Assembly (NCBI GenBank): GCA_965216315.1
Contig: CBDCFN010000015.1
Location: 288,001 to 352,000 of the forward strand
DNA: 64,000 nt
DNA from: a bacterium
Lineage (GTDB): Bacteria; UBA10199; 2-02-FULL-50-16; JAJFLM01
Direction of reading: 5' to 3'
Each line of letters starts with the position of its first letter. Positions within the stretch are counted from its first letter, which is position 1. The notes below the pieces were generated by a model, which saw only the letters and a program-made list of their open reading frames with translations, made no database searches and was not told the origin of the DNA. Positions 13,093-61,926 of the stretch are shown in pieces. A program made the position numbers and the translations under genes.

Positions 13093-13118
13093 CAACTCTG
13101 TGTGACGCGCACCGATAA
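13093..13118 (+). promoter_or_regulatory. Recurrent promoter motif CAAC-N16-CGATAA
   Basis: Upstream of the orphan at 13156; same spacing at 10 other sites. Confidence 0.75.
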
Positions 13119-13155
13119 CAGGAATGTAAACTTTTTAACAAAAAGGAATTCAATT

Positions 13156-13623
13156 ATGGCTAAACAAGTCTCAAGTAAAAAAGTCTCCCAATGGATGGCC
13201 GATGCCCTGCGCGCGAATCCCAACACGCGACCGGAATGGTTAATCAAACAAGTCGCGATCAGTTGCAAGAGCAGTGAAAGAGAGTGTTTGAGTGCCTATC
13301 AAGAAGTTCGCGACAAGGTTGCAGAATACCGTGCGGCGCCGATAACTAAAAATTACACTGTGCGTTTGCAAATGGAACCGCCGACATCATCATCCCCTGA
13401 GCCTGCCGAAGGACAGCCCCTTGTCGTCAAAGAAGTCACCGTCGTCGGTGATCCCAACAATGCATTCCAGCACATTCAGCCTTTTCTGACACCAACGCCG
13501 GCGGCACCAACAAACAACGAACTCCCAAAGAATCCTTTTAAAATTGAATTAATGCCGCTGGAAACACCGACATCGGCACCAAACGCGTCTCTGCCGCCAC
13601 TTTCGACCGATCTTAATTTCTAA
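13156..13623 (+). CDS. Hypothetical protein with Pro-rich C-terminus
   Basis: AAGGA SD before ATG 13156 (MAKQVSS); no family recognised. Confidence 0.7.
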   Translation: MAKQVSSKKVSQWMADALRANPNTRPEWLIKQVAISCKSSERECLSAYQEVRDKVAEYRAAPITKNYTVRLQMEPPTSSSPEPAEGQPLVVKEVTVVGDPNNAFQHIQPFLTPTPAAPTNNELPKNPFKIELMPLETPTSAPNASLPPLSTDLNF

Positions 13624-13697
13624 TCACACTTAGTTTGGTTGCGTTTTTAATGAACGCAATCAAGTGGTTGTAATTTAACTTCATGGTCGTTTTCGGA

Positions 13698-13723
13698 CAA
13701 CCTCACCTCAATCACACCGATAA
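13698..13723 (+). promoter_or_regulatory. Recurrent promoter motif CAAC-N16-CGATAA
   Basis: Upstream of the 13758 orphan. Confidence 0.75.
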
Positions 13724-13757
13724 GTTTTTGTAAGACGCATCACTAACAGCGAAAGGA

Positions 13758-14381
13758 ATGATCATGGCGGATAAAGTTTCTGCGGGAGTTCAAGTCAACA
13801 AAGAAGGCGTCGTCATCACGACTGACGAGGGAACTGTCGAATCGAGAGTCGATGACAGAGAAAAATCTTGGGCCATGTCGGCGGATGTCATGGGTGGCAT
13901 CGGTCACGGAATTTATGTCGGACCCGGCTTTGATGCCTCGTACTGTGCACGGCTGAGTCGCAAACTCTGTTTGAATATGGGTCTCGGCATGTTCGGAAGT
14001 TTTGGTTCAGGACCGGTCGAACGAACCAAACATGCTGATGGGTCGATTTCGGATAGCGGTTCTGAATTGATGATGGTCCCCAACCTCCATGCCGGCGTCG
14101 TCTACCAATTGTCGCGTGCTATTGGTCTCGGTGGTCAGGCCCGCCTCGGCTATGCCCGCATCAATGGCCATTATGAAAATTTTGAACCGAACCGTTACAG
14201 TTACAAGGAATCCTACGTCGACACGGGGCTCTATCTCGAAGGAGCGGTGCGCTTATTAATCAATCTTTCAAGTTCCACCGGCCTCCACACTGATTTCGGC
14301 GTGAATTCATTCCCAGCCGCCGGTCCCGAAGGACGGCGCGGCGGCTTCATGGGCCGCATCGGGGGCCTATTCCGTTTTTAA
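13758..14381 (+). CDS. Small outer-membrane beta-barrel-like protein with no evident signal peptide
   Basis: Gly/aromatic alternating strands; C-terminus GFMGRIGGLFRF ends in Phe. Confidence 0.6.
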   Translation: MIMADKVSAGVQVNKEGVVITTDEGTVESRVDDREKSWAMSADVMGGIGHGIYVGPGFDASYCARLSRKLCLNMGLGMFGSFGSGPVERTKHADGSISDSGSELMMVPNLHAGVVYQLSRAIGLGGQARLGYARINGHYENFEPNRYSYKESYVDTGLYLEGAVRLLINLSSSTGLHTDFGVNSFPAAGPEGRRGGFMGRIGGLFRF

Positions 14382-14382
14382 G

Positions 14383-15567
14383 TTATCCCTTGCTTTGAGG
14401 AGGTGTGAGCGGAAAGACCGATTCGTCGGGTAAGAAAATATCGTCGAGCTGCAGAAAACGCAGAAACTCTTCGCCGGTGACGTCTATGCCGAGGTCAATG
14501 CAATTGGCCTGCGGCACGCCGAGGCCGGTGGCGGTACTGGCGCATACAGCTTCGAAGGTCGTGGGAGGAATGGGTCCGGTAACTCCCGGTACAATATCAT
14601 CTGGCTCATCGAACTCGACCGTACTGTCGACTGAACCACTCCAAAAGGGATGAGCATCACGAAATCGGCCGATATACTTGATGAACTCTTGTTGAGGCAT
14701 TTCGGATGAAGAAAGGTCTTCGGTGAATTTGATGGTTTTGATCGCTTCGTGCTCCGTTGGACCTCGTTGCGTTAACTCGGTATGAGCCGAAAGTTCCTCA
14801 TTGAGCCGAACAAAGACAGTTGAAATGATATCTGCGGGGTCAACGAAATCATAGCTCCCTGCTATTTCAGTCAGCAAATTCACGAAACCACTGCCTTGTT
14901 CGCGGGCGCGGAATTGGCCGCTACCGCGTTCGCTCTCATCGGTCTCGGTATTGGGATCATCGCGAATCGCGAGACGGTCAAAGCGGCCGGCGACAAAGCG
15001 TTCAAAGTTCCCGTCACCATCGGGATCGCGCCAGATACGGTAACACACCGGTTTCAATTCTTCGACGGCCGCTTGGGTCGGACACTCGGCGAGGTCACAA
15101 CCGACCGGACACGTGCATCCGCTGCACCCTTGATTATCAAAGTCTGCAAAATCGAATTTAAGATGATCCTCGGGTGATTTTGTCTTGCCCTCAAAGCTCT
15201 TCACCTGTGGACTGACGGGAATATCCACCTCATCAAAAATACGGATCAGCACCTCAACAGCTTGCAGATTGATATCTACCACTATCGGACCCAACGCGAT
15301 AAAAAAGCTGAAGTCCTCCCCGACTTGCGCAAGGAGCGTTTGTAGTTCCTCGCCACTACTCGACAGGCTACTGCTATCAATACTGAGACTCTCAGGAAAC
15401 CGTAGGAAAGACGGAAGTTCGGCTGGTGGCGCCGGCGGCGTGGCAGGGATCGTCCCTTCACCACCTCCATCGCCGGGGACAGGAGCACTCGAGGAGGCAC
15501 AAGCCCCGAGCCCAATCAGACTCGTGAGCAGCCCCAAGAACAGGAGAATCCTTAGCCTTTTATGCAT
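14383..15567 (-). CDS. Acidic lipoprotein with Cys cluster, hypothetical
   Basis: Lipobox LGAC, Pro/Gly linker, GCSGCTCPVGCDLAECP. Confidence 0.75.
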   Translation of the reverse strand: MHKRLRILLFLGLLTSLIGLGACASSSAPVPGDGGGEGTIPATPPAPPAELPSFLRFPESLSIDSSSLSSSGEELQTLLAQVGEDFSFFIALGPIVVDINLQAVEVLIRIFDEVDIPVSPQVKSFEGKTKSPEDHLKFDFADFDNQGCSGCTCPVGCDLAECPTQAAVEELKPVCYRIWRDPDGDGNFERFVAGRFDRLAIRDDPNTETDESERGSGQFRAREQGSGFVNLLTEIAGSYDFVDPADIISTVFVRLNEELSAHTELTQRGPTEHEAIKTIKFTEDLSSSEMPQQEFIKYIGRFRDAHPFWSGSVDSTVEFDEPDDIVPGVTGPIPPTTFEAVCASTATGLGVPQANCIDLGIDVTGEEFLRFLQLDDIFLPDESVFPLTPPQSKG

Positions 15568-15653
15568 GGCCCCTAGTACCTTAATGTAATGGTATCAAAT
15601 GCAAGTCCCGGTAGCTATCGCTCGCTTATATCTCTTTGATGCACTGTGATTTG

Positions 15654-16914: not shown

Positions 16915-16940
16915 TTGTCGGTCGGCAGCCGGCAAAGTTT
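16915..16940 (-). promoter_or_regulatory. Recurrent promoter motif variant AAAC-N16-CGACAA
   Basis: Minus strand, upstream of ATG 16898. Confidence 0.65.
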
Positions 16941-17759: not shown

Positions 17760-17785
17760 CAACCTTTGGGCCGGTGCGGCGATGA
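17760..17785 (+). promoter_or_regulatory. Recurrent promoter motif CAAC-N16-CGATGA
   Basis: ATG 17792 lies 12 nt after the C of CGA. Confidence 0.7.
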
Positions 17786-20966: not shown

Positions 20967-20992
20967 CAACATCTGGAGGACAGGACCGATAC
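20967..20992 (+). promoter_or_regulatory. Recurrent promoter motif CAAC-N16-CGATAC
   Basis: ATG 21001 lies 14 nt after the C of CGA. Confidence 0.72.
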
Positions 20993-21000: not shown

Positions 21001-22095
21001 ATGTCCGGCGCGATCAATCTCAGTCAACTCGTCCAGCTCACCCAATTCAACCTGGGCGGCAGTTTGATTTTCGGCTGTCTTTCCGATACGGGCGAGATCA
21101 CAAACGGCCCTCTCGCCACGGACGTCGTAGGCAGTTTCGCCTATGCGAGTCAGGCCCAAGCAACCGCGCGTGTGTTCCATGAAACGGCGCCTTCACGCGC
21201 GGGGCTGATCCCGATCGAGCCCGATATGACCGATCCTTATGATCTGGAGCTCCATCTTTATATTGATGAAATCCCGTCCTTCGACCGCCAGGGCATTAAA
21301 GGCACCTGGGTCGGACTCGGTCATTATCGCCTGCAACCGAATGCCTACGAAATCCAACATGGCCCGCGCGTCCAGGTACGCACGGAACAAGAGACAAACG
21401 GTGGTCGCCCGATTGAACTCGCCATCGAATATAGCCTGAGCGGTTTCAACATGATGGTCCGTCAGGAAGAAGGCATCCGCTTTCCCCAAAAACGCGGACC
21501 TTCATGGGGCATGTTAGGCACGCAATTGGGATCACGTCTCTTCCTGGAAAGATTATTAGGCGCTCATGCCGTTCCCAACGTCACTCACGTCGACCAAATA
21601 GACGAACCCTTTCACCCACAAGATGTCAGTATGCTGTTTGAGTTGGGACTCCATTTCTATAGCGCCAATCCGGAACGCTGGGCGGAGGGCTTCTACTTTG
21701 ATGACTACCGCGGTGATCATTATGCTGTCATTTATTCGGACGATGGCACGGGTCACCTGGTCAACTCGTCCGGTCAGCGGATTGAATTTGACGACTATGT
21801 CCCACATCAAGGGGCAATGAATCTGCGCTCGGCCGAACGCGTGCAGGGAACGGCCCTTGATGTACCGGCCCTGTGTATCAGCTTGGCCTCCGACGGTATC
21901 AGTATCAGCGAACACCTCCTCAACCCGGCGCAAACTTCTTTCAGCTCGTTCATGCGTCAGTTGATCGCAAGAAGCCAGGAAGAGGTTCAGCGCCAGCTGA
22001 CTTATATCCAGACGCTTTCACCGGAAGAGCGTCTGGCAAGCTTAGCGGAGGCCTTTGGAATCGACGAAGCAACCTTTAGGGCCCGCAACCGATAG
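21001..22095 (+). CDS. Orphan protein, paralog of 22105..23334
   Basis: 364-aa ORF; shares R.(F/Y)LER.LG...PF.P...Y.A.P....EGF...D with its neighbour. Confidence 0.75.
   Translation: MSGAINLSQLVQLTQFNLGGSLIFGCLSDTGEITNGPLATDVVGSFAYASQAQATARVFHETAPSRAGLIPIEPDMTDPYDLELHLYIDEIPSFDRQGIKGTWVGLGHYRLQPNAYEIQHGPRVQVRTEQETNGGRPIELAIEYSLSGFNMMVRQEEGIRFPQKRGPSWGMLGTQLGSRLFLERLLGAHAVPNVTHVDQIDEPFHPQDVSMLFELGLHFYSANPERWAEGFYFDDYRGDHYAVIYSDDGTGHLVNSSGQRIEFDDYVPHQGAMNLRSAERVQGTALDVPALCISLASDGISISEHLLNPAQTSFSSFMRQLIARSQEEVQRQLTYIQTLSPEERLASLAEAFGIDEATFRARNR
22070..22095 (+). promoter_or_regulatory. Recurrent promoter motif CAAC-N16-CGATAG inside the upstream CDS end
   Basis: The TAG of the motif is the stop codon of the upstream gene; ATG 22105 follows. 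Confidence 0.72.
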
Positions 22096-26217: not shown

Positions 26218-26281
26218 AGCCTTAACTATGCTAAAGCCTCGGGGATCTCCTCGCAACTAAATTCCGCGCTTGACCGATAAA

Positions 26282-26300: not shown

Positions 26301-26326
26301 ATTATTAGGAAGGATGAAATCCGCCC

Positions 26327-27537: not shown

Positions 27538-27563
27538 TTATCGTTCAACCGCTACGTGGGTTG
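27538..27563 (-). promoter_or_regulatory. Recurrent promoter motif CAAC-N16-CGATAA
   Basis: Minus strand, upstream of ATG 27516. Confidence 0.75.
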
Positions 27564-48161: not shown

Positions 48162-48187
48162 CAACCTTTGGCTGCCCTAACCGATAG
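48162..48187 (+). promoter_or_regulatory. Recurrent promoter motif CAAC-N16-CGATAG
   Basis: Lies at the head of the co-oriented gene run 48243-57490. Confidence 0.75.
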
Positions 48188-48204: not shown

Positions 48205-48237
48205 ACTCTTTCACTGTCGTGGGGACAGGAGGAGGAG
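48205..48237 (+). repeat. Conserved 5'-UTR hairpin/RBS element, copy 1
   Basis: ACTCTTTCA-CTGTC-GTGGG-GACAG-GAGGAGGAG. Confidence 0.85.
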
Positions 48238-48242: not shown

Positions 48243-48701
48243 ATGGGAGATTTTTTCAGTAATCTTGCAGACGTCGTCCACATCGGCGGCGGTTATCGCT
48301 TACAACTCGATGATCCGATTGAGCCGCATCGCGCGACGGCCAACGTCCATGTCGGCGGGACCAGTAATTGGCGGGGGCCGGGCCTGACCTTCGGCCTCGA
48401 TGGCGGCATCGATAGCGCGGGCGAAGGGCGCGTCGGCGCTCGCGTTGGTTTTGGCGGTCCACTTCATCTCATCCTGTGGGGTGATATCGCCGCGCAGGCG
48501 GGGGCCCACCTGCAGGATACTCAGACCGGTTTTGAAGCCGGCGCCTATACCGGCGTCGTCGGTCGCTTGCTCGCTTTGACGCCAGTCGGGCTGATCGGTC
48601 TGCAGGGTGAGGTCAATGCCGGCAACCTCGGCAACGGGGATGCCCAATTGGAACTCGGGGTCCAACTGATCTGGGGAACCTCGTTTAGCCTCTGGCTCTA
48701 A
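48243..48701 (+). CDS. Small Gly-rich beta-barrel-like protein with no signal peptide
   Basis: Alternating Gly/hydrophobic strands; strong SD before ATG 48243. Confidence 0.65.
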   Translation: MGDFFSNLADVVHIGGGYRLQLDDPIEPHRATANVHVGGTSNWRGPGLTFGLDGGIDSAGEGRVGARVGFGGPLHLILWGDIAAQAGAHLQDTQTGFEAGAYTGVVGRLLALTPVGLIGLQGEVNAGNLGNGDAQLELGVQLIWGTSFSLWL

Positions 48702-48709
48702 ACCGTAGA

Positions 48710-48743
48710 ACTCTTTCACTTGTCATGGGGACAAGAGGAGGAG
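48710..48743 (+). repeat. Conserved 5'-UTR hairpin/RBS element, copy 2
   Basis: 34 nt identical to 61942-61975. Confidence 0.9.
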
Positions 48744-48748
48744 AACTC

Positions 48749-49273
48749 ATGTTCAACACGCTTTCCAATCAATTAATGTCCATGGTTCGCGTCAGCGTCT
48801 TGGGCCTGGCCGGTTTGACGGCTTCGGCATGCTCTTGTAGCGCTGTGGAGAACCCGCCACCGGATGCCGCCCTTAGCGACGGGAATGTGTCAGACTCCGG
48901 TCTCCTGATGGGACCATCGACCAACCTAATCGAGGCCGTGTGCGGCAAGCTCTCCGCCTGCTATCCCGAGATGGATCTGGAGGCCTGTCGAACGGCCCTG
49001 GCGGGCGAGCCCGGCCGCCAGATCTGGGATGAATTCGGCGCGCCGGAGAATCGCTATAATGCCATGGAGCTGAATTCCGCAGTGCGCAGCGGGGACTTGC
49101 TGGTCAGTGATAGTAATCTGGGCGCCTGTGTCGATGCGATCGGTGCGCTTACATGTGCAGATCTAATCGGTGAACCGTGGTCGAGCCGCAATCCGGATGA
49201 TTTTGGCAACGTTGAGAATACGCTCGGTAGTGACGTGGTGCCTGCCTGTGGCGACGTTTTCGCGAGCAGATAA
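48749..49273 (+). CDS. Cys-rich putative lipoprotein
   Basis: Lipobox-like VSVLGLAGLTASAC; paired Cys helices (VCGKLSAC, ACVDAIGALTC). Confidence 0.7.
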   Translation: MFNTLSNQLMSMVRVSVLGLAGLTASACSCSAVENPPPDAALSDGNVSDSGLLMGPSTNLIEAVCGKLSACYPEMDLEACRTALAGEPGRQIWDEFGAPENRYNAMELNSAVRSGDLLVSDSNLGACVDAIGALTCADLIGEPWSSRNPDDFGNVENTLGSDVVPACGDVFASR

Positions 49274-49288
49274 AAACAGTGTTCTACG

Positions 49289-50926
49289 ATGTTTCAGTGC
49301 GCCCTCAATAGCCTGTCGACCACCCTCGCCGCGAGTGCGGTGGGCACGATTGGTACGAGTTACCTCAGTCAGTTTATGAACCCGGTGGACCCGATGATCA
49401 TGCCAACTCCAGGGGATTCTTATTATTGCTCGGTCCAGAGTGGCGACGAGGGTGGCGGTTCCAATCCGGCTCAGCGGTCATCTGTTGCCAGCTCTCTGTG
49501 GCTGCTCCGGCCGCGGAGCGAAATGACTTCCCTGTTGCGCGCGATGGCGGCGCAGCATCAAGTCACCTTTGATGTCTGGCTGGCCCGGATCCTGAAAGCG
49601 GCCGATGGCGAGGAAGTGTGCCGTCTGTTCGATCGTATCGAGCTTCGTGCAAATGCCAGCGACTGGCCGGAACCGGTGCGGACCTACGACCGGCAGGGCC
49701 GGGCGGCCGATACCATCCGCGCCTTCAAACTGGCCGGCGGCGTTCCTCTCTTACGGGACATCCTCGCAGACACCTCACACCCCTACCGGTGGCAGGCGAT
49801 TCGCGCCATTATTAGCCTGCAAGAGGCCGGGCTCCTGACAGCGACACAACAGCATGAGTTCATTCGCCCGCTGGCCGCGATGCTCCGTTCATTCTTGGAG
49901 GATCCCCGCGATAGTACGGATGGTCATGGGCTCTCGTTTGCCCTTCGGGCCCTCGGTCTGCTGGGCGCCCGCGAGGCGATTCCGGATCTCCAAGCGCTTT
50001 TCGACCTGCTCGCCGGAGTCGATGATCACACCAACAGTCTTCCGGCCCTTCTCCTACTCGCTCTCGGCACCTTGCGGGCCGCTTCCGCGCGACCGGCACT
50101 GCTGCGCTTGGCGGGAGCCGCGCAGTCACGACTGTATCGCGAAGCCATTATGGGGCTGGCGCATTTCGATGACGATGAAGCGAGCAGCCGTCTCGTCGGT
50201 CTGTTGGCCCATCCCAACCATGACATCCGCGCGCATGCGGCGCAGGCGCTCGGTAGGGCCGGTGCCCGGGAAGCGATCCTCTTATTGCAGACAGCCCTGC
50301 ACGACCGGCATGATTTAGTCCGGCTCTACGCCGCTCAAGCCTTGGTAAGATTAGGCGTATTTGATGCGGCCGTGGCTGTGTTGTGTCACTTAGCAACGAG
50401 TGAATCCACATATCTTCAGTTTCGCCTCGATGCCCTGGATACATTAGGGGCCTCTGCGGACCCCGAGATTGAGGAAACGCTACAACGGGCCTTCTTGAAT
50501 CCCGGCGAGCAACTCAATGCGCGGGCGCAAGAGTATGTTCGCTACCACGCGGCCTGCGCATTATTGCAACACGGCATTCGGGCGCCGCTCCCGTATTTGT
50601 TGGCTTTTCTTCGCGATCCTCAGCTGGATTCAAGTGCCGAGGTGTCATGGCGTTTCGCCGGTCAGACCGTTAGAAGACGCGTTCCGTTGCTGGTCAGCGA
50701 CGGTTTGCGCGTGACGACCATCCAGCATTTGAGTCGCGCGCACGTCCACGCAGCCGTTTCTTCCCTGAGAGGGTTCTTGAACTATCGCGGCCGCCAGATT
50801 GGTCAGGCCTGGGTGGGAGGGCTGGAAGTCAGAGCCGCGGCCGCCGCGGCGCTCGATCGGCTCGACCCGGGCTGGGACAAGCGCATGATGCGCGAATGGC
50901 GGGATTTCAATGGAGGTGTTCGATGA
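49289..50926 (+). CDS. Leader-family protein with HEAT (PBS-lyase-like) repeats
   Basis: N-terminus CALNSLSTTLAASA...YLSQFMNPVDPMIMPTP...YYCS; repeats such as IRAHAAQALG and VRLYAAQAL. Confidence 0.85.
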   Translation: MFQCALNSLSTTLAASAVGTIGTSYLSQFMNPVDPMIMPTPGDSYYCSVQSGDEGGGSNPAQRSSVASSLWLLRPRSEMTSLLRAMAAQHQVTFDVWLARILKAADGEEVCRLFDRIELRANASDWPEPVRTYDRQGRAADTIRAFKLAGGVPLLRDILADTSHPYRWQAIRAIISLQEAGLLTATQQHEFIRPLAAMLRSFLEDPRDSTDGHGLSFALRALGLLGAREAIPDLQALFDLLAGVDDHTNSLPALLLLALGTLRAASARPALLRLAGAAQSRLYREAIMGLAHFDDDEASSRLVGLLAHPNHDIRAHAAQALGRAGAREAILLLQTALHDRHDLVRLYAAQALVRLGVFDAAVAVLCHLATSESTYLQFRLDALDTLGASADPEIEETLQRAFLNPGEQLNARAQEYVRYHAACALLQHGIRAPLPYLLAFLRDPQLDSSAEVSWRFAGQTVRRRVPLLVSDGLRVTTIQHLSRAHVHAAVSSLRGFLNYRGRQIGQAWVGGLEVRAAAAAALDRLDPGWDKRMMREWRDFNGGVR

Positions 50927-52620
50927 CGTTTACTTGTGCCCTGAATACTTTGCCGACCACCCTCGCCGCGAGTGCGAGCATCTTGACGTCTCCGCGCGCC
51001 GTCGATTTCTTGGAGGCCTTTCAGGCCGATCCGGTCAATGGCCAATTAATAGTACCGATTCTTGCGGGAGATGCCAGCACAGCCACTCAAGATCGCTTTC
51101 ATGCGGAACCTTTTGCGGTAGAAAATTTCGCCGCCGTTCATGCGACCGTCACGACGTTGATCGCAGCCCTGCAAAAGCTCTGTGCCGGTCAGCAACGCTG
51201 CAGACTCATATTTGATGAGGTGTACCCGGGGGTTGCCCCACATATTTTTTCGATTCCCGCTAGCCCTGGAGCCTGGGAGGCTCGGCTTTACCAGGATCAC
51301 GGCACACACGCTGAGAGCTATTGGCTAGATTTCTTAAGGTCGGGACGCAAAGTAAGCATCACACTTCAGTATTCTGGTCAGCGGTACTTCGACACGGACA
51401 AGATCATGCTGTTCGGCGACATCTCGTCAGCAAGTATTGAGGTTGACGTCAGCTTTGCCCAGCCCGGGATGCGCGCCGCCCAGAACTCCCGGATGCATTA
51501 CTCCGATTCAAAAAGTAGCTCAGCGTATCTTTTACTATTTCAAGGCTCTCATCTTGATAGCTTGCGCCAGTTTTTGGGGATGGATTTATCACAAGCCTTG
51601 CCGGAACTGTCCGCCGAACTGGTCGAACACTTGGACTATGATCAATATGAAGACTCCGATGATGGCAACCGAAGCTTTTTCTACGATCATTATTCAAGCA
51701 TTGTCACACCCGATCAGCGGGTCACGGTCAGCTGGAATACAGACGATGAACTCGAAGAACCTGATGCCTATGGTCGAGTCCAAACGGAAGAACTCGGCGT
51801 GCAAATAGCTGCAGGAAGCGACGCGGCATCCGCTTTGCGTGACACAGAACGCCAGCTATGGGACTGGGTTCATCACCAAAAGGAGCCAAATCAAGAATTT
51901 CTGGAGTTTCAAGCCCAGTGTCAACGTATCAAGACTCTGCTATTCGCCTCCGGCGTTTTTCCACCAGACCATGCCCTGATAAGCGACCTCAGCGCCCCTA
52001 GCCATCCCGTATGGCATCTGGATGCCGAGAACATGGGGCATGTGCTAGGAGATATATTAAGTCGTATTTACCGTTCTCTCGAAGGATTTGAGTCCGCCGC
52101 CGCGGTTGCGCTCTATTGCCAGTTGCTCCAAGACCCAAAGCTGGGGCTGAGTGATGCTGAAAGTATTGAATATGTCATAGAGCACCTCTTGAATAATCCT
52201 CAAGCAGAGAGTCCTCCGCTGTTTGCAAAGGAAGCTGCACGGTTTCGCATTCTGCGTGCCCTCGTACCGCACCTAGTTCGGAACAACGCGACATACGGCC
52301 TTCTAGATATGCTAAGCGATTTGACATACAGCGCCCTGTTGAAAACCACGTGGTTTCAAGACCACAAAGCCGCTCAGCTCAAACCGCTGGAGGCTTACCC
52401 ACTCAATCCAACAAGAAGCGAAGCCTGGCGCCTGCTGATGGCTGAGATGGATCCGGCAGAACTACTCACGGAGGTCTTAGCCATTTGGACGGAGATAAGC
52501 GAAGAGATATTGCTATACCGTACAGTCGATGAAACCGAACGGGCCCGATTGAACGAAAAATATGAAGCCATGAAAACCTGGCTGACCTTGTGCCTGACAG
52601 GCCAGGGAGGTGAGTCATGA
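50923..52620 (+). CDS. Leader-family protein with shared 'domain X' and helical C-terminus
   Basis: GGAGG SD and ATGA overlap at 50923; MTFTCALNTLPTTLAASA. Confidence 0.82.
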   Translation: MTFTCALNTLPTTLAASASILTSPRAVDFLEAFQADPVNGQLIVPILAGDASTATQDRFHAEPFAVENFAAVHATVTTLIAALQKLCAGQQRCRLIFDEVYPGVAPHIFSIPASPGAWEARLYQDHGTHAESYWLDFLRSGRKVSITLQYSGQRYFDTDKIMLFGDISSASIEVDVSFAQPGMRAAQNSRMHYSDSKSSSAYLLLFQGSHLDSLRQFLGMDLSQALPELSAELVEHLDYDQYEDSDDGNRSFFYDHYSSIVTPDQRVTVSWNTDDELEEPDAYGRVQTEELGVQIAAGSDAASALRDTERQLWDWVHHQKEPNQEFLEFQAQCQRIKTLLFASGVFPPDHALISDLSAPSHPVWHLDAENMGHVLGDILSRIYRSLEGFESAAAVALYCQLLQDPKLGLSDAESIEYVIEHLLNNPQAESPPLFAKEAARFRILRALVPHLVRNNATYGLLDMLSDLTYSALLKTTWFQDHKAAQLKPLEAYPLNPTRSEAWRLLMAEMDPAELLTEVLAIWTEISEEILLYRTVDETERARLNEKYEAMKTWLTLCLTGQGGES

Positions 52621-53780
52621 TCGGTCTGAGTCACATGCTGGCAACACACCTTGCTCTCAACAGTACCCTGCTTGCGAGTACGACCTTTCTCTCGCATTTC
52701 CACAGCACCTTATTGCGCTATGGCATCGACCGTCCCGATGTCTCGATGAGTACAGCGATCAACCGTATGCCTCAGCCACACCGGCTGCTCGGCCGCATCA
52801 CCAAGCCACGACAAAGCGAGGCTGATGCGATCGCCCTCTTCCGCGATCGGCTGCTCGAGAAATTACCGGCCTATGCGGTACCGTTTGGGGATCGCCCGGA
52901 ATGGAATGCCACCATTATCAACGATCTGGCCCAACTAGTACGAAGCAAAATCGACTTGGCGCATGGGCTTCTTGGCCAGCAGAGATTCTTAGTCAGAAGC
53001 TTCACCCCTCGAGCATGGGACGCCGAGAGCTTAGATGAAATCCAGCCGGGTTTTCTCAAGAGTTTTATGGAATACGGTGTTGGACTCGACTACTATGTTA
53101 CTTATTGTTGTGAAGAATTTCGCGAAGCAGATGCCGGTCCTTTCTTCACAGGTGTTTTCGAAAGCGTCGCCACCGCAGCCAGTCGTTCTCGAGCGATCGG
53201 CATCCATAATGTCCTGAGCATGGTGCGCTCACTGGTTTATTTTGGCTTCGCGGACCTTGTGAGTGATCAAGTGAATCCCATCGCCATCATTGAAAAGGAA
53301 CCGGGCACGGGCCCGGAAAGCATCATTGAACTGGTCCGGATTCTAGGCCAGAGCCCATCACCCGACGCCTGCATCGGAGAACTGATCAAAGACTTTACGG
53401 GATATCACTGGCCGGACCGGCCCGGACCACCTGCCAGCCCTTATCGGCCCCAACATGTTTTGGAGCTCGCGCGGGCCATTTCGGCGGCCAAGATCACCGC
53501 ATTTCGACGCGGTTTTTTCCTGGTTGAGTTGCTGAAAATGACGCATTTTCAAGAATGGTGGAAGTCGTGTCAGCAAGGTGTCTATCCGGATCCGATTATC
53601 GCCAGCGTCGACATATTCATTGAGACAGTCATTGAAGCTTCAGGCCGTCGTCAGGCCGGTCCGGTAGTAGAGGAATTATGTCTCCGCTTCAACTCAACGA
53701 TGGAAAGTCTCGTCCAAGCGCGTTGGCAGCATTTTGAAAATGAAAATCCGTCACCTCCAGAAGAGGGGCCTTACCGATGA
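52617..53780 (+). CDS. Leader-family orphan protein
   Basis: ATGA overlap; LALNSTLLAST. Confidence 0.8.
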   Translation: MIGLSHMLATHLALNSTLLASTTFLSHFHSTLLRYGIDRPDVSMSTAINRMPQPHRLLGRITKPRQSEADAIALFRDRLLEKLPAYAVPFGDRPEWNATIINDLAQLVRSKIDLAHGLLGQQRFLVRSFTPRAWDAESLDEIQPGFLKSFMEYGVGLDYYVTYCCEEFREADAGPFFTGVFESVATAASRSRAIGIHNVLSMVRSLVYFGFADLVSDQVNPIAIIEKEPGTGPESIIELVRILGQSPSPDACIGELIKDFTGYHWPDRPGPPASPYRPQHVLELARAISAAKITAFRRGFFLVELLKMTHFQEWWKSCQQGVYPDPIIASVDIFIETVIEASGRRQAGPVVEELCLRFNSTMESLVQARWQHFENENPSPPEEGPYR

Positions 53781-54895
53781 GGTTTATTTATTCCTTGAAT
53801 TGTTTACCTGCCACGCTCGCCGCGTGTATGGCTTCCCCATCAATCGGCTACATAGAGCGCTCACTCAATCCGCCGGATGTCTTGGCCATGCCCGAGCCCG
53901 AGGCGTCGCTTTTTTGTTCAGCCCGATCCGATGATTTGTTGCGGTTAAGTCCCGGCAATCCCATCGGTGCCTGCTATCATGACGGTTCGTTTCGACTGTT
54001 CGGCCTCGACAAATTAACGACCACCGACGTGATCGGAACACTTTGCGATCGAAGGCCGCCTAGCTTCATTTTACGACTCGATGATTTAATTACAATGCGA
54101 CTTGAGAAACGAATCTTTGAGGGACCTGTAAGCGGGCTAGTTCCCATCCTAAAAGAATTCTCACGTAGATCTTGGACAAGTCGATTGGAATATAAAGCGC
54201 TGATGTGGTCGTGCGAGCGGCTCAAGCAGGAAACATCTTTTGATAGCATTGAAGAAATCGAAGTTTTTTTTGAAGCGATCGAAGCGTTTTCAGTAGCTCC
54301 AGTCTTTCCAAGGGGTCAATCACTCGGAGAACTCAAGCTAAGCGTTTACTACGCATTACTAAAAGCAGTGGAACGTTTTCTGCCTATGGGAGATGTTACT
54401 TTGTATAATCGTATCCTTAGAGCCATCCCGGCAAGTTATTATGATCACTTATGCCGGGCAGAAGACGCTATATTCCGCCTGGAGAGCGCCGCCAATTTCG
54501 GTCTCAAGCAGCGACTCCAGATCTTTCAATGTCTACTCGAAATCACAACGGCACATTACCAGGCGCAGAATGTTTTCATGATGGAAGAACAACTCGCTGG
54601 GTTAATGGGACGTACGCGAAGAGGGTTGATAGGCACAAAAAATGCGTCAAGGCTGACTGAGCAAACAGAAATAGTGCACCGTATCTGGCAGATGCTTGCG
54701 AACGTCGATAGTCTTCATGAAATTGTTTCCCAACACCTAAAAGAACTCCTGAATCACATTGAAAACGGTGTCATTACAGCGCCTCATTATTACGCATCTG
54801 GTTCACGCGACAACGTCATTAAGAACCACAAACTACACGCGGCACTGATCCATATACGTGATACCATGGAAACAAAGCGTGGAGACAGCGCATGA
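53777..54895 (+). CDS. Leader-family protein with 'domain Y'
   Basis: ATGA overlap; YSLNCLPATLAAC...YIERSLNPPDVLAMPEP..SLFCS. Confidence 0.82.
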   Translation: MRFIYSLNCLPATLAACMASPSIGYIERSLNPPDVLAMPEPEASLFCSARSDDLLRLSPGNPIGACYHDGSFRLFGLDKLTTTDVIGTLCDRRPPSFILRLDDLITMRLEKRIFEGPVSGLVPILKEFSRRSWTSRLEYKALMWSCERLKQETSFDSIEEIEVFFEAIEAFSVAPVFPRGQSLGELKLSVYYALLKAVERFLPMGDVTLYNRILRAIPASYYDHLCRAEDAIFRLESAANFGLKQRLQIFQCLLEITTAHYQAQNVFMMEEQLAGLMGRTRRGLIGTKNASRLTEQTEIVHRIWQMLANVDSLHEIVSQHLKELLNHIENGVITAPHYYASGSRDNVIKNHKLHAALIHIRDTMETKRGDSA

Positions 54896-55536
54896 CGTTC
54901 CTAGCTGTTAACCCACTTGCCATTACACCCGCGCTCGCCGCGAGTGCGACGAATATGAATTACTTGTCGCGCGCACTGAATCCGGCGGACGTGCTGGCAA
55001 TGCCGGATCCCAACGTTTCGCATTTTTGTCAGGTGAGTGGTGAGGACGGTTCTGGAAATCCACTGTTGGCCTCTTACGCTCCGGGGCACTTCCGAATCTT
55101 TGGCCTTCCACTATCGACCTCCCAAAAGGCAAATCTACTGACTCACAATGACGGATTGTTTAGGCAGCTCAATAATCTCCTCCAGGTTTCGGTCGCAGGC
55201 CGCGGAGTCGACCAGCTAAAGCCACTTTTGCTCGCTCTCTGTGATGCATGGGATGATGCCGACGGCTATCAGAAAAAGTATCTCGATGAAATCGACATAG
55301 CCATTCACGATATCCTCTCATCACCCGCGGCTTATGCAGGGCTTGATGACATGCGCGCGTTACTTCGCTGGGTTCGACGCTTGCCAAGTCAATCACACAC
55401 CTATGAGACACAGTTGATCGTTTATTCGGCCCTGCTTTGCGTACTTGATGACCGAGATGACTTTCTCGACATGGCAGAGGAAGCCGAGGACTTGTATGAA
55501 CTTATTATGGAACTCGTTCCCGATGAGTGGAAATGA
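54892..55536 (+). CDS. Leader-family protein, shorter paralog of 53777..54895
   Basis: ATGA overlap; PALAASA..NYLSRALNPADVLAMPDP..SHFC; GNP..A.Y..G.FR.FGL. Confidence 0.8.
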   Translation: MTFLAVNPLAITPALAASATNMNYLSRALNPADVLAMPDPNVSHFCQVSGEDGSGNPLLASYAPGHFRIFGLPLSTSQKANLLTHNDGLFRQLNNLLQVSVAGRGVDQLKPLLLALCDAWDDADGYQKKYLDEIDIAIHDILSSPAAYAGLDDMRALLRWVRRLPSQSHTYETQLIVYSALLCVLDDRDDFLDMAEEAEDLYELIMELVPDEWK

Positions 55537-56657
55537 TGAACGTCTCCTCCATCAACTATGCCCTCAACAGCACCGTACTTGCGAATACGATGGGGATGTC
55601 TTATCTCGGGCAGTTCATGAACCCGGCGGACCCGACGGTCATGCCGATGCCCAGGGATGTTTTCATTTGTTCGGCCCACAACGGCGATGACAATGACGGC
55701 GGGGGATCCGCCCCGGAACGGGAGACGCCGACTCTGTTTGACCTGATACTAAATAACAATGAGCGTGATATCGCGACGCTCTTGAAACGCACGGTGCAAA
55801 CGCCGCGACAACGGCTGCGCCAATTAGACGCCGAACTCCAACGCGTGCTCGCTTATGGGGAACCCTTGACGGAGAAACAGCGTGGGCTCTTGTTGTTTCG
55901 CGGCCTTCAATCAACGTGCTGGGATGAGTTGTTTGAACCGGATTTCGAGCAGGTACGTCTCTATGTTCCGGCAGTCAGCTGGGACCTGATGGCGCCGCAG
56001 GGCTTTCGTGTTACTAAGGCGCCGCTGGCGGCGGAAAACAGCGCCAACCTGCTGGCAATGGGTCGAATGCTGCTTGCCGCCGCTCGAGTGATGGATCAAC
56101 TGCGCTTGTGGGAGGCGGGACCGCGGCCTGAAGCCGGCCCGGAACGTGGCTGGCATATCGAGGGGTCGCGGCTCTTGCTCGCGGCGCCTAATGACATCAT
56201 GATCGAAATGGTGTTTGCCGCGGACTGTCGCGCCCTGCGTCTCAAAGTGGCTCAGGCCCAGAACGACGGCTTGATTGAGCTCGCATTGACGCATGCCGTG
56301 GCGGCCGGAACCCTGCAACCCCCCTTGTTCGAAGTCGTCATGGCGAGCACGGCGGTCGACCAACTCAAACAGTATTGTGGCCTTAGTCGAGGCGCGGCGC
56401 CTTTCGATCTTGCGGCGGGGCTGTTGGCACGCCTCCAATTCCGAGTGATCAGTGTCTTTCGTGACGATCAGGATTTTTTCGAGGTCATCGGGGAAATACG
56501 AAGCCACCGAATGCGGATTCGTGTCGGAGTGGCAACGGATCCTGATGCGGGTCTTGGAGTCGAGATGGCACTCTGGTCGAATCCCGGCCAGCGGGCGCGT
56601 CTTCATGGCGAGCCCCTGATTTTTTTGAACTGGATCAAAGGATTGCGTGAGTCATGA
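55533..56657 (+). CDS. Leader-family protein with 'domain X'
   Basis: ATGA overlap; YALNSTVLANT...YLGQFMNPADPTVMPMP..VFICS. Confidence 0.82.
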   Translation: MMNVSSINYALNSTVLANTMGMSYLGQFMNPADPTVMPMPRDVFICSAHNGDDNDGGGSAPERETPTLFDLILNNNERDIATLLKRTVQTPRQRLRQLDAELQRVLAYGEPLTEKQRGLLLFRGLQSTCWDELFEPDFEQVRLYVPAVSWDLMAPQGFRVTKAPLAAENSANLLAMGRMLLAAARVMDQLRLWEAGPRPEAGPERGWHIEGSRLLLAAPNDIMIEMVFAADCRALRLKVAQAQNDGLIELALTHAVAAGTLQPPLFEVVMASTAVDQLKQYCGLSRGAAPFDLAAGLLARLQFRVISVFRDDQDFFEVIGEIRSHRMRIRVGVATDPDAGLGVEMALWSNPGQRARLHGEPLIFLNWIKGLRES

Positions 56658-57490
56658 CGTTGCCGACGGCCGCGACGATGGTGCAATGGTTTCAACCCTT
56701 GGCTGCCTTGTATCTGCGCCATGCGGATCAGCTCGGGATCGACCAGCGCTATTTCACGACGACGGAGGAGGCCTTGCAGCACTTTCGCGCGCGCGCGCTG
56801 ACGGGTGAAGGCGCCGTGTCCGATGAACCGCGCCGTATCGCCCATCACCTCGTGCGGCATTTTGATAGCAACGCCTGGGCGGCGCAATTGAGCGGGCGTA
56901 CTGAACCCTGCCGGCGCGCTCTTTGGGACACGGTACAGGATGCGGCACAGGCCTTCAGCGCCTTAGGGGTGCACACCTTGGTGCGGAACAAGTCCGAGCG
57001 CCAGTGGGTCGATGAGATTGCGGCCTGGCGCGGGCGCCGTTTTGGGGACGCGCTGCACACGCCCTTGATACCGGCTCCCGGGCTAGAGAGGACATCTTTC
57101 GTGGACCAGTTGCAGCGTTCTTTAGATGGTGATCGCGATTGGTCCGATCGCTTCGCCATGCAGGTATGGGTCCATTATATCGGGGCGATGGCGGCGGTCG
57201 GTGACGGCGCAGCCGTGAATCTGCTGCTCAGTATCTATCAGGAAAGCGCAGGCCCGACACCCGGCGATGATCACGCGTTTCGTTCGGTCTTGGCCTCGGA
57301 ATTGGAATGGGTTTCCGATCGAAGGGCGGTGTTGGCGTTATTAAACGAAGCGCAGCGCAAGACGGCGCATTGGAGCAATGTCCTGCGCCAGCGCATCGGC
57401 TTGGAGCTCGGCCTGGAGGCCATTATCGCCACTGAACGGGCGGAGCGAGCCCAATGGCGGCTGGAGGCGGCAGGCGAACCGGGTGACTAG
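56654..57490 (+). CDS. Helical orphan protein, last gene of the array
   Basis: ATGA overlap; lacks the clear ALNS leader. Confidence 0.72.
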   Translation: MTLPTAATMVQWFQPLAALYLRHADQLGIDQRYFTTTEEALQHFRARALTGEGAVSDEPRRIAHHLVRHFDSNAWAAQLSGRTEPCRRALWDTVQDAAQAFSALGVHTLVRNKSERQWVDEIAAWRGRRFGDALHTPLIPAPGLERTSFVDQLQRSLDGDRDWSDRFAMQVWVHYIGAMAAVGDGAAVNLLLSIYQESAGPTPGDDHAFRSVLASELEWVSDRRAVLALLNEAQRKTAHWSNVLRQRIGLELGLEAIIATERAERAQWRLEAAGEPGD

Positions 57491-61051: not shown

Positions 61052-61079
61052 GTTCAAGTTCTCCTCAACGCTAGATCGC

Positions 61080-61095
61080 TGCAATATGAGTGCCA
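61080..61095 (-). promoter_or_regulatory. Sigma54 -24/-12 promoter
   Basis: Minus strand TGGCACTCATATTGCA (GG-N10-GC). Confidence 0.8.
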
Positions 61096-61153
61096 TGGCG
61101 AAATAATATATATATCTGAAAAATATAGAGTTTGTAAGAAATTTAGACAGAAC

Positions 61154-61190
61154 AATATTATCAAATTGATAATATTATCATTATGATAAT
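61154..61190. promoter_or_regulatory. Overlapping palindromes of TGATAAT/ATTATCA heptamers
   Basis: AATATTATCAAATTGATAATATTATCATTATGATAAT. Confidence 0.65.
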
Positions 61191-61237
61191 AAATTAGCGA
61201 AAATCCTGGAAAAGTAGGCTGACATCTACAGACCTGT

Positions 61238-61786
61238 TTAACCCATCATCAAGGCGCTGTTGAGGAGACTCGCGTCACGATCGAAATAGAGCGCAATCGG
61301 ATCGTCCGTAGTCAAGGCGAGCAGGGCGAGGCCGGTGTGCAGGTCCGTAAAATTGGTCAGGGGTGCGAAGGTGGCGCGGGCGGCTGTCTCGGTTGCCTGA
61401 ATTCTTTCCTGTTGCTGCTCTTTTGCCGTCTCGACTTCATAGAGGCTGACCGCTGCGTCATAAGCCGAACGGATCAATTCATCAAAACGAGCGGTTTCTT
61501 GCTGGGCCAGCTCGCCGCGCGTTCCACTGAATTGTTGCGCGTCATTGGCGAGGGACTCCTGAAAACCCCTGAGTCCCGCAAGCTGTTGGATCAGTTCGTT
61601 GCGTCGGTAGACAAAACGGCCTCGTGGATTGGGCAAGGTAAAGACCATCTCCGGCGGCCGCAAGTAGACCTGATTCATTGTCTTGCGGGGCCAGTGGACC
61701 GGGCCGACGTGCAGGCTATGCGCGACGGGGGCCATCGCAGCCATCGTGTTCAAATAGGATAGATAATAGTTAGTCGCTAGGGACAT
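61238..61786 (-). CDS. Orphan protein with coiled-coil-like region and charge-free N-terminus
   Basis: MSLATNYYLSYLNTMAAMA; GAGGAG SD. Confidence 0.7.
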   Translation of the reverse strand: MSLATNYYLSYLNTMAAMAPVAHSLHVGPVHWPRKTMNQVYLRPPEMVFTLPNPRGRFVYRRNELIQQLAGLRGFQESLANDAQQFSGTRGELAQQETARFDELIRSAYDAAVSLYEVETAKEQQQERIQATETAARATFAPLTNFTDLHTGLALLALTTDDPIALYFDRDASLLNSALMMG

Positions 61787-61820
61787 ACCCTCTCCTCAAT
61801 CTCCCCATGAGACATTCTCG

Positions 61821-61846
61821 TTGTCGCAATTCCGGCCCTGGAGTTG
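61821..61846 (-). promoter_or_regulatory. Recurrent promoter motif CAAC-N16-CGACAA
   Basis: Minus strand, upstream of ATG 61786. Confidence 0.72.
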
Positions 61847-61900
61847 TGTAAAAAGGGCCTTTGAGCCCCATTTTGACGAATCTTCGCAAAGAACTTCAGA

Positions 61901-61926
61901 CAACCTTGCGCAATCAGGGTCGATAA
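61901..61926 (+). promoter_or_regulatory. Recurrent promoter motif CAAC-N16-CGATAA
   Basis: Upstream of UTR element copy 3 and ATG 61978. Confidence 0.78.

What the first reader, a model, noticed from the sequence alone, without database searches (positions are those of the whole stretch)
13093..61926. A dedicated promoter motif, (C/A)AAC-N16-CGA(T/C)R, marks the orphan genes
Seen: 11 sites have exactly 16-nt spacing and are oriented toward an orphan gene starting 12-61 nt after the C of CGA: 13093(+), 13698(+), 16940(-), 17760(+), 20967(+), 22070(+), 27563(-), 46025(+), 48162(+), 61846(-) and 61901(+). A weaker match lies at 6046. I did not see the 16-nt form before housekeeping genes. Established: the -10 half resembles sigma28/FliA (GCCGATAA); the AAC -35 half resembles ECF sigma promoters (AAC-N16/17-CG) and differs from the TAAA of enteric FliA. 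Inference: a lineage-specific alternative sigma factor co-expresses a scattered regulon of orphan, probably exported, proteins in one life-cycle phase.
Basis: partly seen in the sequence, partly recalled or inferred. Interest (0 to 1): 0.85.

Follow-up and report, generated by a model that had tools for sequence, protein, structure and literature searches.

The report
Secretion-linked sigma-28 promoter marks cargo genes
The repeated motif is a real promoter signal, very probably read by a flagellar-type sigma factor that sits inside a protein-injection gene cluster, and it marks about 200 mostly unknown genes, many of which look like cargo for that injection machine in an uncultured bacterial lineage.

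Summary
Confirmed. All 11 sites are real (17 matches against 4.8 by chance), and the genome holds about 205 such sites just upstream of genes. The consensus RCAACTTT…GCCGATAA has sigma-28 geometry with a changed -35 box. Its likely reader is a FliA-like sigma factor encoded inside a non-flagellar type III secretion (T3SS) cluster. Three relatives with 54-99 sites have only RpoD and this sigma. Its -35-reading helix carries Arg where FliA has Gln. The same motif precedes a T3SS gene beside distant homologues (22 of 31 loci).

Spacer length sorts the targets. 18-nt sites precede the needle-like gene (24 of 26 loci, 23 of them 18 nt), further T3SS-cluster genes and lipoproteins. 16-nt sites precede dispersed genes, 60% with an uncharged non-Sec N-terminus and a third leaderless. 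Cargo includes bacterial signalling enzymes and barrel-like proteins without signal peptides, so the target may be another bacterium. Secretion and transcription starts are inferred, not shown.

The scan found the promoter and sigma before in another genome (e1-7119057). The spacer classes, the N-terminal tag and the reach to distant homologues are not in the lines of that note I saw.

The parts
13093..13117 (+). 16-nt-spacer promoter; orphan gene 13156-13623 starts 43 nt after the C of CGA
13698..13722 (+). 16-nt-spacer promoter before 13764-14381, an outer-membrane-barrel-like orphan with no signal peptide
   Evidence: (Atlas 0.96 to barrel clusters)
16916..16940 (-). 16-nt-spacer promoter before 15654-16898 (uncharged N-terminal tag)
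17760..17784 (+). 16-nt-spacer promoter; ATG of 17792-18313 12 nt after the C of CGA (leaderless class)
20967..20991 (+). 16-nt-spacer promoter; ATG of 21001-22095 at 14 nt (leaderless class)
22070..22094 (+). 16-nt-spacer promoter at the end of the previous gene; ATG of 22105-23334 at 15 nt (leaderless class, tagged)
27539..27563 (-). 16-nt-spacer promoter before orphan 27091-27516
46025..46049 (+). 16-nt-spacer promoter; ATG of 46057-47064 at 12 nt (leaderless class, tagged)
48162..48186 (+). 16-nt-spacer promoter heading the orphan operon
48243..57490 (+). Operon of nine mostly orphan genes: a signal-less barrel-like protein, a 174-aa protein, and seven genes of which several start with the uncharged L-L-A-S-type tag
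61822..61846 (-). 16-nt-spacer promoter before 61238-61786 (tagged); divergent from the 61901 site
61901..61925 (+). 16-nt-spacer promoter before 61978-62922 (tagged)
6071..6097 (+). 18-nt-spacer promoter (22 bits) before the CAP-domain lipoprotein 6129-7610; better than the overlapping 6046 match
26254..26279 (+). 17-nt-spacer promoter (22 bits) before the bfd-bacterioferritin pair 26327-27084
48208..48237 (+). 30-nt 5' leader element (short inverted repeat plus Shine-Dalgarno), one of five copies in the genome
48713..48743 (+). Second copy of the leader element, before 48749-49273
61945..61975 (+). Third copy of the leader element, before 61978-62922

Best explanation
The motif is the promoter of a sigma-28/FliA-derived sigma factor (G000:C16:350583-351410, outside the window) that is encoded in the middle of a non-flagellar T3SS cluster. 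Regions 2-3 still read GCCGATAA; a changed region 4.2 helix (SKSWTSRLH against SESRVSQLH) reads GCAAC. As with flagellar class-3 genes, the basal apparatus and the sigma are made first from other promoters; the sigma then switches on what the machine exports. 18-nt (sometimes 17-nt) sites drive needle-like and other late T3SS-cluster subunits and envelope lipoproteins; 16-nt sites drive about 205 dispersed genes, about a third as leaderless mRNAs, most beginning with an uncharged, Ser/Thr/Leu/Ala-rich first 20 residues that serve as the export tag. Shown here: motif, position, spacer classes, sigma synteny, sigma by elimination, residue changes, tag statistics. Inferred: binding by this sigma (about 0.9), start sites, export of the tagged proteins through the T3SS (about 0.65), order of expression, and that the target is another bacterium (about 0.45, against about 0.25 for a eukaryote).
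For: Sigma: the genome has five sigma-70 proteins: RpoD, RpoH-like, two ECF-size, and one whose best NCBIfam match is FliA/WhiG. Its orthologue is in 31 of 31 genomes searched and beside T3SS genes in 46 of 47 loci. G004, G019 and G026 show only RpoD and this sigma over the TIGR02937 cut-off and hold 99, 70 and 54 exact motifs against 12, 5 and 2 for the reversed control. In P. aeruginosa the -10 is (-15)GCCGATAA(-8), R97 reads the extended -10 and S224/Q228 read the -35 (PMC12784957, passages); by alignment R97 and S224 are kept and Q228 is Arg, in all 46 T3SS-linked orthologues shown. With that numbering the C of CGA is -13, and in-frame ATGs peak at offsets 12-16 (75 among 207 sites, 0-8 per offset at 18-44), with SD-like words in 14 of 64 against 77 of 122 leadered genes. 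Pairing across deep lineages: a matrix trained only on G000 finds the motif before the sctI-like gene next to distant homologues in 22 of 31 metagenome loci, 0 of 31 for control spacers, 9 of them exactly 12 nt before the ATG. T3SS link: sites precede the needle-like gene in 24 of 26 loci and its neighbour g0842 in 28 of 32, against 0 of 40 for the sigma, 0 of 22 sctD, 1 of 32 sctJ, 0 of 39 sctL, 3 of 35 sctN. SctV passes its own cut-off and not FlhA's; no flagellin, rod or FlgM match in G000. Cargo: 123 of 205 16-nt genes have at most one charged residue in residues 2-20 against 187 of 2180 other genes, 1 of 29 18-nt genes; Sec or lipoprotein signals 15 of 205 against 14 of 29 (P 1e-9 and 2e-7). 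The effect fades with distance from the start (125, 42, 21, 12, 17 of 200). 97 of 142 scanned targets lack Pfam hits against 23 of 70 neighbours. Tagged RtcB, phosphofructokinase and cysteine desulfurase each have an untagged paralogue; in RtcB an uncharged start replaces a charged one in a 15-row clade (100/100).
Against: No transcript, binding or secretion data. The three two-sigma genomes are one family and 91-97% complete. No secretin lies in the T3SS cluster; the only strong secretin is in a type II operon, so the route across the outer membrane is unknown. Needle identity is weak (best E 0.002, PrgI/MxiH E 0.4-1.4, no Pfam hit). 67 of 205 16-nt genes have neither tag nor signal, and some are ordinary metabolic genes. 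Composition also separates targets further in (AUC 0.85 for residues 2-30 but 0.79 and 0.77 for 31-60 and 51-80). The tag is weaker in distant relatives: uncharged starts in 18 of 25 (G001), 11 of 29 (G004), 6 of 28 (G023), the L-L-A-S word in 6, 2 and 0, with crude start calls. Outside the lineage the 18-nt rule was not seen (3 of 8 needle-like genes have a site, spacers 16-17, control 1 of 8), and one homologue sits in a type VI cluster.
Confidence: 0.65

Rival explanations
1. Same sigma and promoter, but the regulon is a cell-type or life-stage programme (as WhiG, or chlamydial sigma-28 late genes). T3SS subunits are only part of it, and most tagged proteins stay in the cell or envelope, the N-terminus serving another sorting or turnover purpose.
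For: Histidine kinases, response regulators, GGDEF, RelA-type and metabolic domains among targets could act in the producer. About a third of 16-nt targets have no tag. Chlamydial sigma-28 binds only two late genes (PMC12282069, passages). No secretin in the cluster.
Against: Does not explain why duplicates of housekeeping enzymes gained an uncharged start, why the five most barrel-like small proteins of a crude screen all lie under the promoter and lack signal peptides, or the fast turnover of targets (18 of 82 targets in three relatives have a G000 homologue).
Confidence: 0.2
2. The T3SS exports the tagged proteins only to the cell's own periplasm or surface (a secretin-less export route for envelope proteins), not into another cell.
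For: No T3SS secretin found; signal-less barrel-like proteins need a periplasm; the related myxobacterial system lacks secretin, needle and translocon (PMC3459982, PMC10433427, PMC12075869, passages).
Against: Many tagged domains need cytoplasmic substrates (ATP, GTP, RNA, RNA polymerase). The cluster keeps a needle-like gene and three SycD/LcrH-like chaperones flanking large helical proteins.
Confidence: 0.1
3. An ECF sigma, RpoH or RpoD with an activator reads the motif; the FliA-like sigma is a bystander.
For: AAC-N16-CG resembles recalled ECF promoters; G000 has two ECF-size sigmas and an RpoH-like one.
Against: Motif-rich genomes without ECF- or RpoH-size sigmas over the cut-off; full GCCGATAA -10; motif travels with the sigma in distant loci.
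Confidence: 0.04
4. The motif is a chance or repeat-derived pattern, not a promoter.
For: About five window matches and about a third of genome matrix hits lie inside genes.
Against: Strand, spacing and position specificity; variable spacer with conserved boxes; presence in 31 of 31 genomes at 36-132 against 1-17 controls.
Confidence: 0.01

Closest known systems
Flagellar class-3 promoters read by sigma-28/FliA (P. aeruginosa structure, PMC12784957, passages)
   Same: GCCGATAA -10, the same distance between boxes for the 16-nt form, conserved region 2-3 arginines, sigma gene beside type III export genes, late exported subunits as targets.
   Different: -35 is GCAAC, not TAAAG; Gln228 is Arg; no flagellin, rod or FlgM found in G000; about 280 genes with a site; two spacer classes with different targets; a third of 16-nt targets leaderless.
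hrp promoter and HrpL of Pseudomonas syringae (PMC4149516, abstract and passages)
   Same: An alternative sigma whose promoter marks T3SS genes and dispersed effectors and can be used to list them; the regulon also holds non-effector genes.
   Different: HrpL is an ECF sigma with another -10 box (recalled); 73 sites there against about 280 here; HrpL also drives the apparatus operons (recalled), whereas here the basal apparatus genes lack the site; host is a plant.
Myxococcal needle-less T3SS* (mxan_2434-2464; PMC3459982, PMC10433427, PMC12075869, passages)
   Same: Secretin-less non-flagellar T3SS with SctD, J, I, Q, R-V, N, L and several LcrH-like chaperones, in a deltaproteobacterial setting; effectors unknown.
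   Different: This cluster has a weakly needle-like gene and large helical proteins between the chaperones; G000 shows no Tad or type IV pilus ATPase. That M. xanthus SigF is encoded in its T3SS* cluster is recalled (Ueki et al. 2005, not held); whether it belongs to this subfamily was not tested.
Chlamydia trachomatis sigma-28 (PMC12282069, passages)
   Same: A FliA-type sigma kept in a non-flagellated bacterium that has an injectisome.
   Different: It binds only hctB and tsp, with an E. coli-like promoter, and is not the T3SS cargo sigma.

Membership tests
Sigma-28/FliA promoter and sigma | -10 box GCCGATAA | tested here: met
   Matrix of 220 sites: G .53, C .51, C .95, G .99, A .99, T .71, A .70, A .71; reference.
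Sigma-28/FliA promoter and sigma | -35 box (TC)TAAAG | tested here: not met
   -35 is RCAAC followed by a T run.
Sigma-28/FliA promoter and sigma | Group 3 sigma scoring as FliA/WhiG | tested here: inconclusive
   Best family TIGR02479, 133 bits, below the 189.6 cut-off; best solved relatives are WhiG and FliA.
Sigma-28/FliA promoter and sigma | Region 2-3 residues that read the -10 | tested here: met
   Counterparts of P. aeruginosa R80 and R97 kept, R82 is Lys, R101 is Ala.
Sigma-28/FliA promoter and sigma | Controls flagellin and is held by FlgM | tested here: not met
   No flagellin or FlgM match in G000; both found in the same 3 of 31 genomes.
Sigma-28/FliA promoter and sigma | Sigma-dependent transcription from the site | not testable with these tools
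   Needs in vitro transcription or 5' end mapping.
   No ECF-size sigma over the cut-off in five motif-rich genomes searched.
Non-flagellar T3SS (injectisome) | Export apparatus, rings and ATPase SctRSTUV, J, D, Q, L, N, O | tested here: met
   SctV and SctN over their cut-offs, several others below; SctU lies apart at C16:805005.
Non-flagellar T3SS (injectisome) | Absence of flagellum-specific parts | tested here: met
   No flagellin, no rod match in a 98% complete genome; FliG-, FliM- and FliO-like genes are kept.
Non-flagellar T3SS (injectisome) | Dedicated secretin SctC | tested here: not met
   One secretin in the type II operon and one weak 253-aa hit elsewhere.
Non-flagellar T3SS (injectisome) | Needle SctF and inner rod SctI | tested here: inconclusive
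   Profile of 27 homologues hits needle proteins at E 0.002-1.4; 12 of 34 homologues of the next gene hit PF17001 at E<=0.1, best 3e-5.
Non-flagellar T3SS (injectisome) | Tip and translocators with class II chaperones | tested here: inconclusive
   Three SycD/LcrH-like hits below cut-off; Atlas leads to EspA, IpaD and LcrV clusters at 0.84-0.89 only.
T3SS effectors | Uncleaved N-terminal export signal, no Sec signal | tested here: inconclusive
   Strong compositional tag in 123 of 205; function as a signal untested.
T3SS effectors | T3SS-dependent delivery into a target cell | not testable with these tools
   Uncultured organism; needs a surrogate assay.

The most novel reading that the evidence does not exclude
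When the flagellar export machine became an injector, its late sigma factor came along. In this phylum, and probably in myxobacterial relatives, one sigma uses spacer length as a two-step switch (18 nt for needle and envelope parts, 16 nt for cargo) to run a bacterium-targeting injectisome with well over 100 effectors. These include captured kinases, cyclases, a ppGpp-type enzyme, an RpoD fragment and outer-membrane barrels that reprogramme a bacterial host from inside. The same promoter would list the missing effectors of the Myxococcus T3SS*.
Probability: 0.3. Interest if true: 0.92.

Novelty: new variant of a known kind. Interest (0 to 1): 0.74.

Why it matters
It gives a sequence rule that lists the likely cargo of an early-branching type III secretion system in an uncultured phylum, where about a tenth of the genes fall under one sigma. 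That points to a host-dependent or predatory way of life for a lineage whose biology is barely described. Because the sigma and promoter recur beside T3SS genes far outside the lineage, the rule makes an open question testable in a cultured model: the reviews read here say the effectors of the Myxococcus T3SS* are unknown. A sigma that separates structural genes from cargo by a two-base spacer difference would be an unusual regulatory design, and a single Gln-to-Arg change is a direct test of -35 recognition.

Tried and rejected
ECF reading: rejected. RpoH-like sigma in the window (3616-4470): absent over cut-off from three motif-rich genomes. Non-coding RNA family: no Rfam match in the window. 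Fold of the shared C-terminal domain of the four large proteins after the cluster: helical, pLDDT 71, no Foldseek match at E<=0.001, and no informative hit among solved sequences. Single-sequence fold of the 13764 protein: pLDDT 35, uninformative, not searched. CesT chaperone search: nothing rang, controls included, so no conclusion. One protein query for the tip-like domain found 7 of 31 genomes; not shown missing in the rest. My early reading that the T3SS cluster has no site (16-nt matrix only) was wrong and was corrected when 17/18-nt spacers were scanned. The plasmid FliA-like hit had no annotation and was not pursued. Whole-record motif counts for distant metagenome loci were not possible, so the size of the regulon outside the lineage is open; so is the link to M. 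xanthus SigF, whose paper I did not see. Literature searches: UBA10199 alone, 27 papers, listing only, no title on this topic; UBA10199 with type III secretion, 0; MXAN_2437, 0; searches showed no description of this promoter in their listings. Subscription papers are not searched, and no supplements were read.
Full report
Observation. The 11 sites and the 6046 match are present as stated. The window holds 17 matches to MAAC-N16-CGAYR; 100 shuffles give 4.78 on average and none reaches 17. The five unlisted matches lie inside genes. The window is C15:288001-352000 of a 2.96-Mb, 98% complete genome. I called 2716 genes with a hexamer model that does not use the motif. The 11 downstream starts lie 12-61 nt after the C of CGA. 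Ten of the 11 proteins have no Pfam match and one has a sub-threshold hit.

Genome-wide test. Of 490 regex matches with a 16-nt spacer, 150 lie 5-100 nt upstream of a called start on the same strand; spacings 10-15 and 19-22 give 6-14, spacings 17 and 18 give 29 and 27. This test is not circular. A matrix seeded on the 11 sites converged on 220 sites with conserved boxes and a variable spacer: (C/A)(G/A)CAAC, a T run, then GCCGATAA. At 13 bits there are 330 hits, 217 intergenic and 208 within 120 nt upstream of a start. With the two boxes alone, upstream hits number 207 at 16 nt, 41 at 17, 32 at 18 and 4-16 at the other eight spacings; 279 of 2716 genes have a site. A few are ordinary genes (panD, ribBA, bioB by Pfam).

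Lineage. Orthologues of the sigma described below come from metagenome-assembled 'Deltaproteobacteria', some titled UBA10199, so I infer that phylum. The exact pattern CAACH-N15-CGATA occurs 36-132 times in each of 31 genomes (G000 and 30 relatives, 17 families) against 1-17 for the reversed pattern. Kin are not independent.

Which sigma. G000 has five sigma-70 proteins: RpoD, an RpoH-like one in the window, two of ECF size, and a 275-aa protein whose best family is FliA/WhiG, below cut-off. Its orthologue is in 31 of 31 genomes. Of five genomes searched for all sigma-70 proteins, three (G004, G019, G026; one family; 91-97% complete) show only RpoD and this sigma over the cut-off, and two show one more of RpoH size; the three hold 99, 70 and 54 motifs. 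In P. aeruginosa the fliC promoter is (-36)TCTAAAG(-30) and (-15)GCCGATAA(-8); S224 and Q228 read the -35 and R97 the extended -10 (PMC12784957, passages). Aligning to that protein, R80, R97 and S224 are kept, R82 is Lys, R101 is Ala and Q228 is Arg; the helix reads SKSWTSRLH against SESRVSQLH, and Lys-Ser-Trp and the Arg are constant in the 46 T3SS-linked orthologues shown. Placing the C of CGA at -13 puts GCAAC at -34 to -30, in register with TAAAG. So a kept -10 reader and a changed -35 reader match a kept -10 and a changed -35. That the change causes the new preference is inference.

Start sites. In-frame ATGs peak at offsets 12-16 from the C of CGA (15, 22, 12, 11, 15 among 207 sites; 0-8 per offset at 18-44). 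Offset 13 is the predicted +1. SD-like words occur before 14 of 64 such genes, 77 of 122 leadered targets and 892 of 2144 other genes. About a third of 16-nt targets are therefore probably leaderless; four are in the window.

The cluster. The sigma gene lies inside a T3SS cluster (C16:339083-372364): SctV over its cut-off and below FlhA's, SctD-, J-, L-, N-, O-, P-, Q-, R-, S-, T-like genes, FliG-, FliM- and FliO-like genes and three SycD/LcrH-like chaperones; SctU lies apart. T3SS genes flank the sigma in 46 of 47 fetched loci. G000 shows no flagellin, rod or FlgM match; flagellin and FlgM occur in the same 3 of 31 genomes. The one strong secretin and the one strong secretion ATPase of the PF00437 family are in a type II operon. 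A conserved gene gives weak profile hits to needle proteins (E 0.002 to a needle-complex fragment, 0.4-1.4 to PrgI and MxiH; no Pfam hit in 27 members), and the gene after the sigma is SctI-like (12 of 34 members). This resembles the secretin-less myxococcal system, described as lacking needle and translocon and needed for prey lysis, with unknown effectors (PMC3459982, PMC10433427, PMC12075869, PMC10849154; passages only).

Spacer classes. The same boxes with an 18-nt spacer precede the needle-like gene in 24 of 26 related loci (23 at 18 nt, 1 at 17) and the homologue of g0842 in 28 of 32 (all 18). They precede the sigma in 0 of 40, sctD 0 of 22, the chaperone 0 of 30, sctJ 1 of 32, the sctI-like gene 7 of 44, sctL 0 of 39, sctN 3 of 35 and sctR, S, T 0, 0 and 1 of about 30 (L051 and loci without flank left out). 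Across 31 genomes the exact pattern RCAACT…CGATAA occurs 779 times at 16 nt, 206 at 17 and 281 at 18, each in all 31 genomes, with 0-3 control matches per genome. In G000, of 205 genes with a 16-nt site 123 have an uncharged start and 15 a crude Sec or lipoprotein signal; of 37 with 17 nt, 3 and 7; of 29 with 18 nt, 1 and 14; of 2180 others, 187 and 468. The 18-nt class includes two of the large proteins between the chaperones. How one sigma would tell the classes apart is unknown; supercoiling or a cofactor are guesses.

The cargo. The uncharged segment is limited to the start: 125 of 200 in residues 2-20, then 42, 21, 12 and 17 in later windows, against a flat 272, 198, 177, 135, 182 of 1959; taking the first ATG after the predicted start gives 131 of 205. 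An L-L-A-S-type word sits mostly at residues 12-18 in about a quarter of targets (54 of 207 against 94 of 2144). I scanned 142 of the 207 targets (the 40 richest regions, window and cluster excluded, long proteins cut to 1200 residues): 97 have no Pfam hit at 1e-5, against 23 of 70 random neighbours (P 2e-6). Hits in tagged proteins include hybrid histidine kinases, a response regulator, GGDEF, adenylate cyclase, RelA/SpoT, RtcB, phosphofructokinase, patatins, a helicase joined to a region 39% identical to the cell's own RpoD C-terminus, a family 28 glycosyltransferase and a cysteine desulfurase. RtcB, phosphofructokinase and the desulfurase have untagged paralogues. The tagged RtcB falls in a 15-row clade (100/100; 35 rows, chosen from the best 120 hits) in which a charged start is mostly replaced by an uncharged one and catalytic motifs remain; the organisms of those rows are unknown. 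The five most barrel-like small proteins in a crude screen all have a site and lack a signal peptide; one, in the window, scores 0.96 against barrel clusters. No ankyrin match was found in the genome and none of the 142 hit an ankyrin, LRR, F-box or U-box family. This leans towards a bacterial target but does not exclude a protist. In three relatives (first 30 sites each) only 18 of 82 downstream proteins have a G000 homologue, and the tag weakens with distance: uncharged in 18 of 25, 11 of 29 and 6 of 28 (crude starts).

Beyond the lineage. Among G000's sigma and its 150 best 50%-identity representatives, 140 have the Trp and 144 the Arg of the changed helix; one of ten looked up is named Acidobacteriota. 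Of 80 metagenome loci fetched with this profile, 77 have a sigma 32-45% identical to G000's; 33 of the 49 loci of 3 kb or more hold a T3SS core gene, one sits in a type VI cluster and one has a myxobacterial-type neighbour. The G000 matrix finds a site before the sctI-like gene in 22 of 31 loci (13 at 16 nt, 9 at 17), none for control spacers, nine exactly 12 nt before the start (L255 left out as a close relative). This is the best evidence that sigma and motif belong together. The 18-nt rule was not seen there (3 of 8 needle-like genes).

Verdict. It works like the hrp promoter of P. syringae, a sigma-specific mark on T3SS genes and scattered cargo (PMC4149516, abstract and passages), but the sigma is FliA-derived. 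It is not a canonical sigma-28 promoter: the -35 test fails and there is no flagellum. I class it as a new variant of a known kind. The promoter is shown; its reader is strongly inferred; export of the targets is probable; the target cell is a guess. My searches found no description in print, with the limits of that library.

Noticed in passing
window 48208-48237, 48713-48743, 61945-61975; G000:C15 near 352208; one copy on C16 before g2046: A 30-nt leader element (short inverted repeat plus Shine-Dalgarno) in five copies before unrelated orphan genes, four of them with the promoter; looks like a promoter-leader unit copied onto new genes.
   Followed up: partly
G000:C15:55958-56452, window 13764 and 48243, C16:1901642-1902196, C16:698844-699410; also C16:738472 and C16:1998727: Five small barrel-like proteins and two barrel-plus-domain proteins under the promoter lack a signal peptide and mostly start M-G/A-D/E.
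   Followed up: partly
G000:C16:91474-94470 (L144:9-3002): Tagged, leaderless 998-aa protein joining a helicase domain to a stretch 39% identical to the C-terminus of the cell's own RpoD; could act on RNA polymerase.
   Followed up: no
G000:C16:362938-370038 (L004): Four large proteins after the T3SS cluster share a helical C-terminal domain; weak Atlas leads to EspA, IpaD, LcrV and chlamydial DUF720. Several 18-nt genes start M-E/D-L-x-L/F.
   Followed up: partly
G000:C16:1463790-1472488: A second group of small low-complexity proteins with 17/18-nt sites, apart from the T3SS cluster; possible further secreted subunits.
   Followed up: no
G000:C16:2159181-2201381: About 15 large orphan genes in a row, most with their own 16-nt site, several Cys-rich at the start and paralogous.
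   Followed up: no
G000:C16:97715, 105078 (16 nt), 284396, 2280780 (17 nt): DUF4423-type regulator genes carry the promoter, tying that family, noted earlier in this genome, to this sigma.
   Followed up: no
window 26254-27084: The bfd-bacterioferritin pair has a strong 17-nt site.
   Followed up: no
window 7635-12278: A 1550-aa regulator joining protein kinase, NTPase, TPR, GAF and sigma-54 activator domains.
   Followed up: no
window 36348-45831: gyrB-dnaN-dnaA-rpmH-rnpA-yidC-mnmE: the replication origin region.
   Followed up: no
L273:5283-15286: A sigma of the same subfamily sits inside a type VI secretion cluster.
   Followed up: partly
G014, G022, G029: Three of 31 genomes have flagellin and FlgM as well as the T3SS sigma; G022 and G029 show a second, more distant FliA. 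They offer a natural test of GCAAC against TAAAG promoters in one cell.
   Followed up: no
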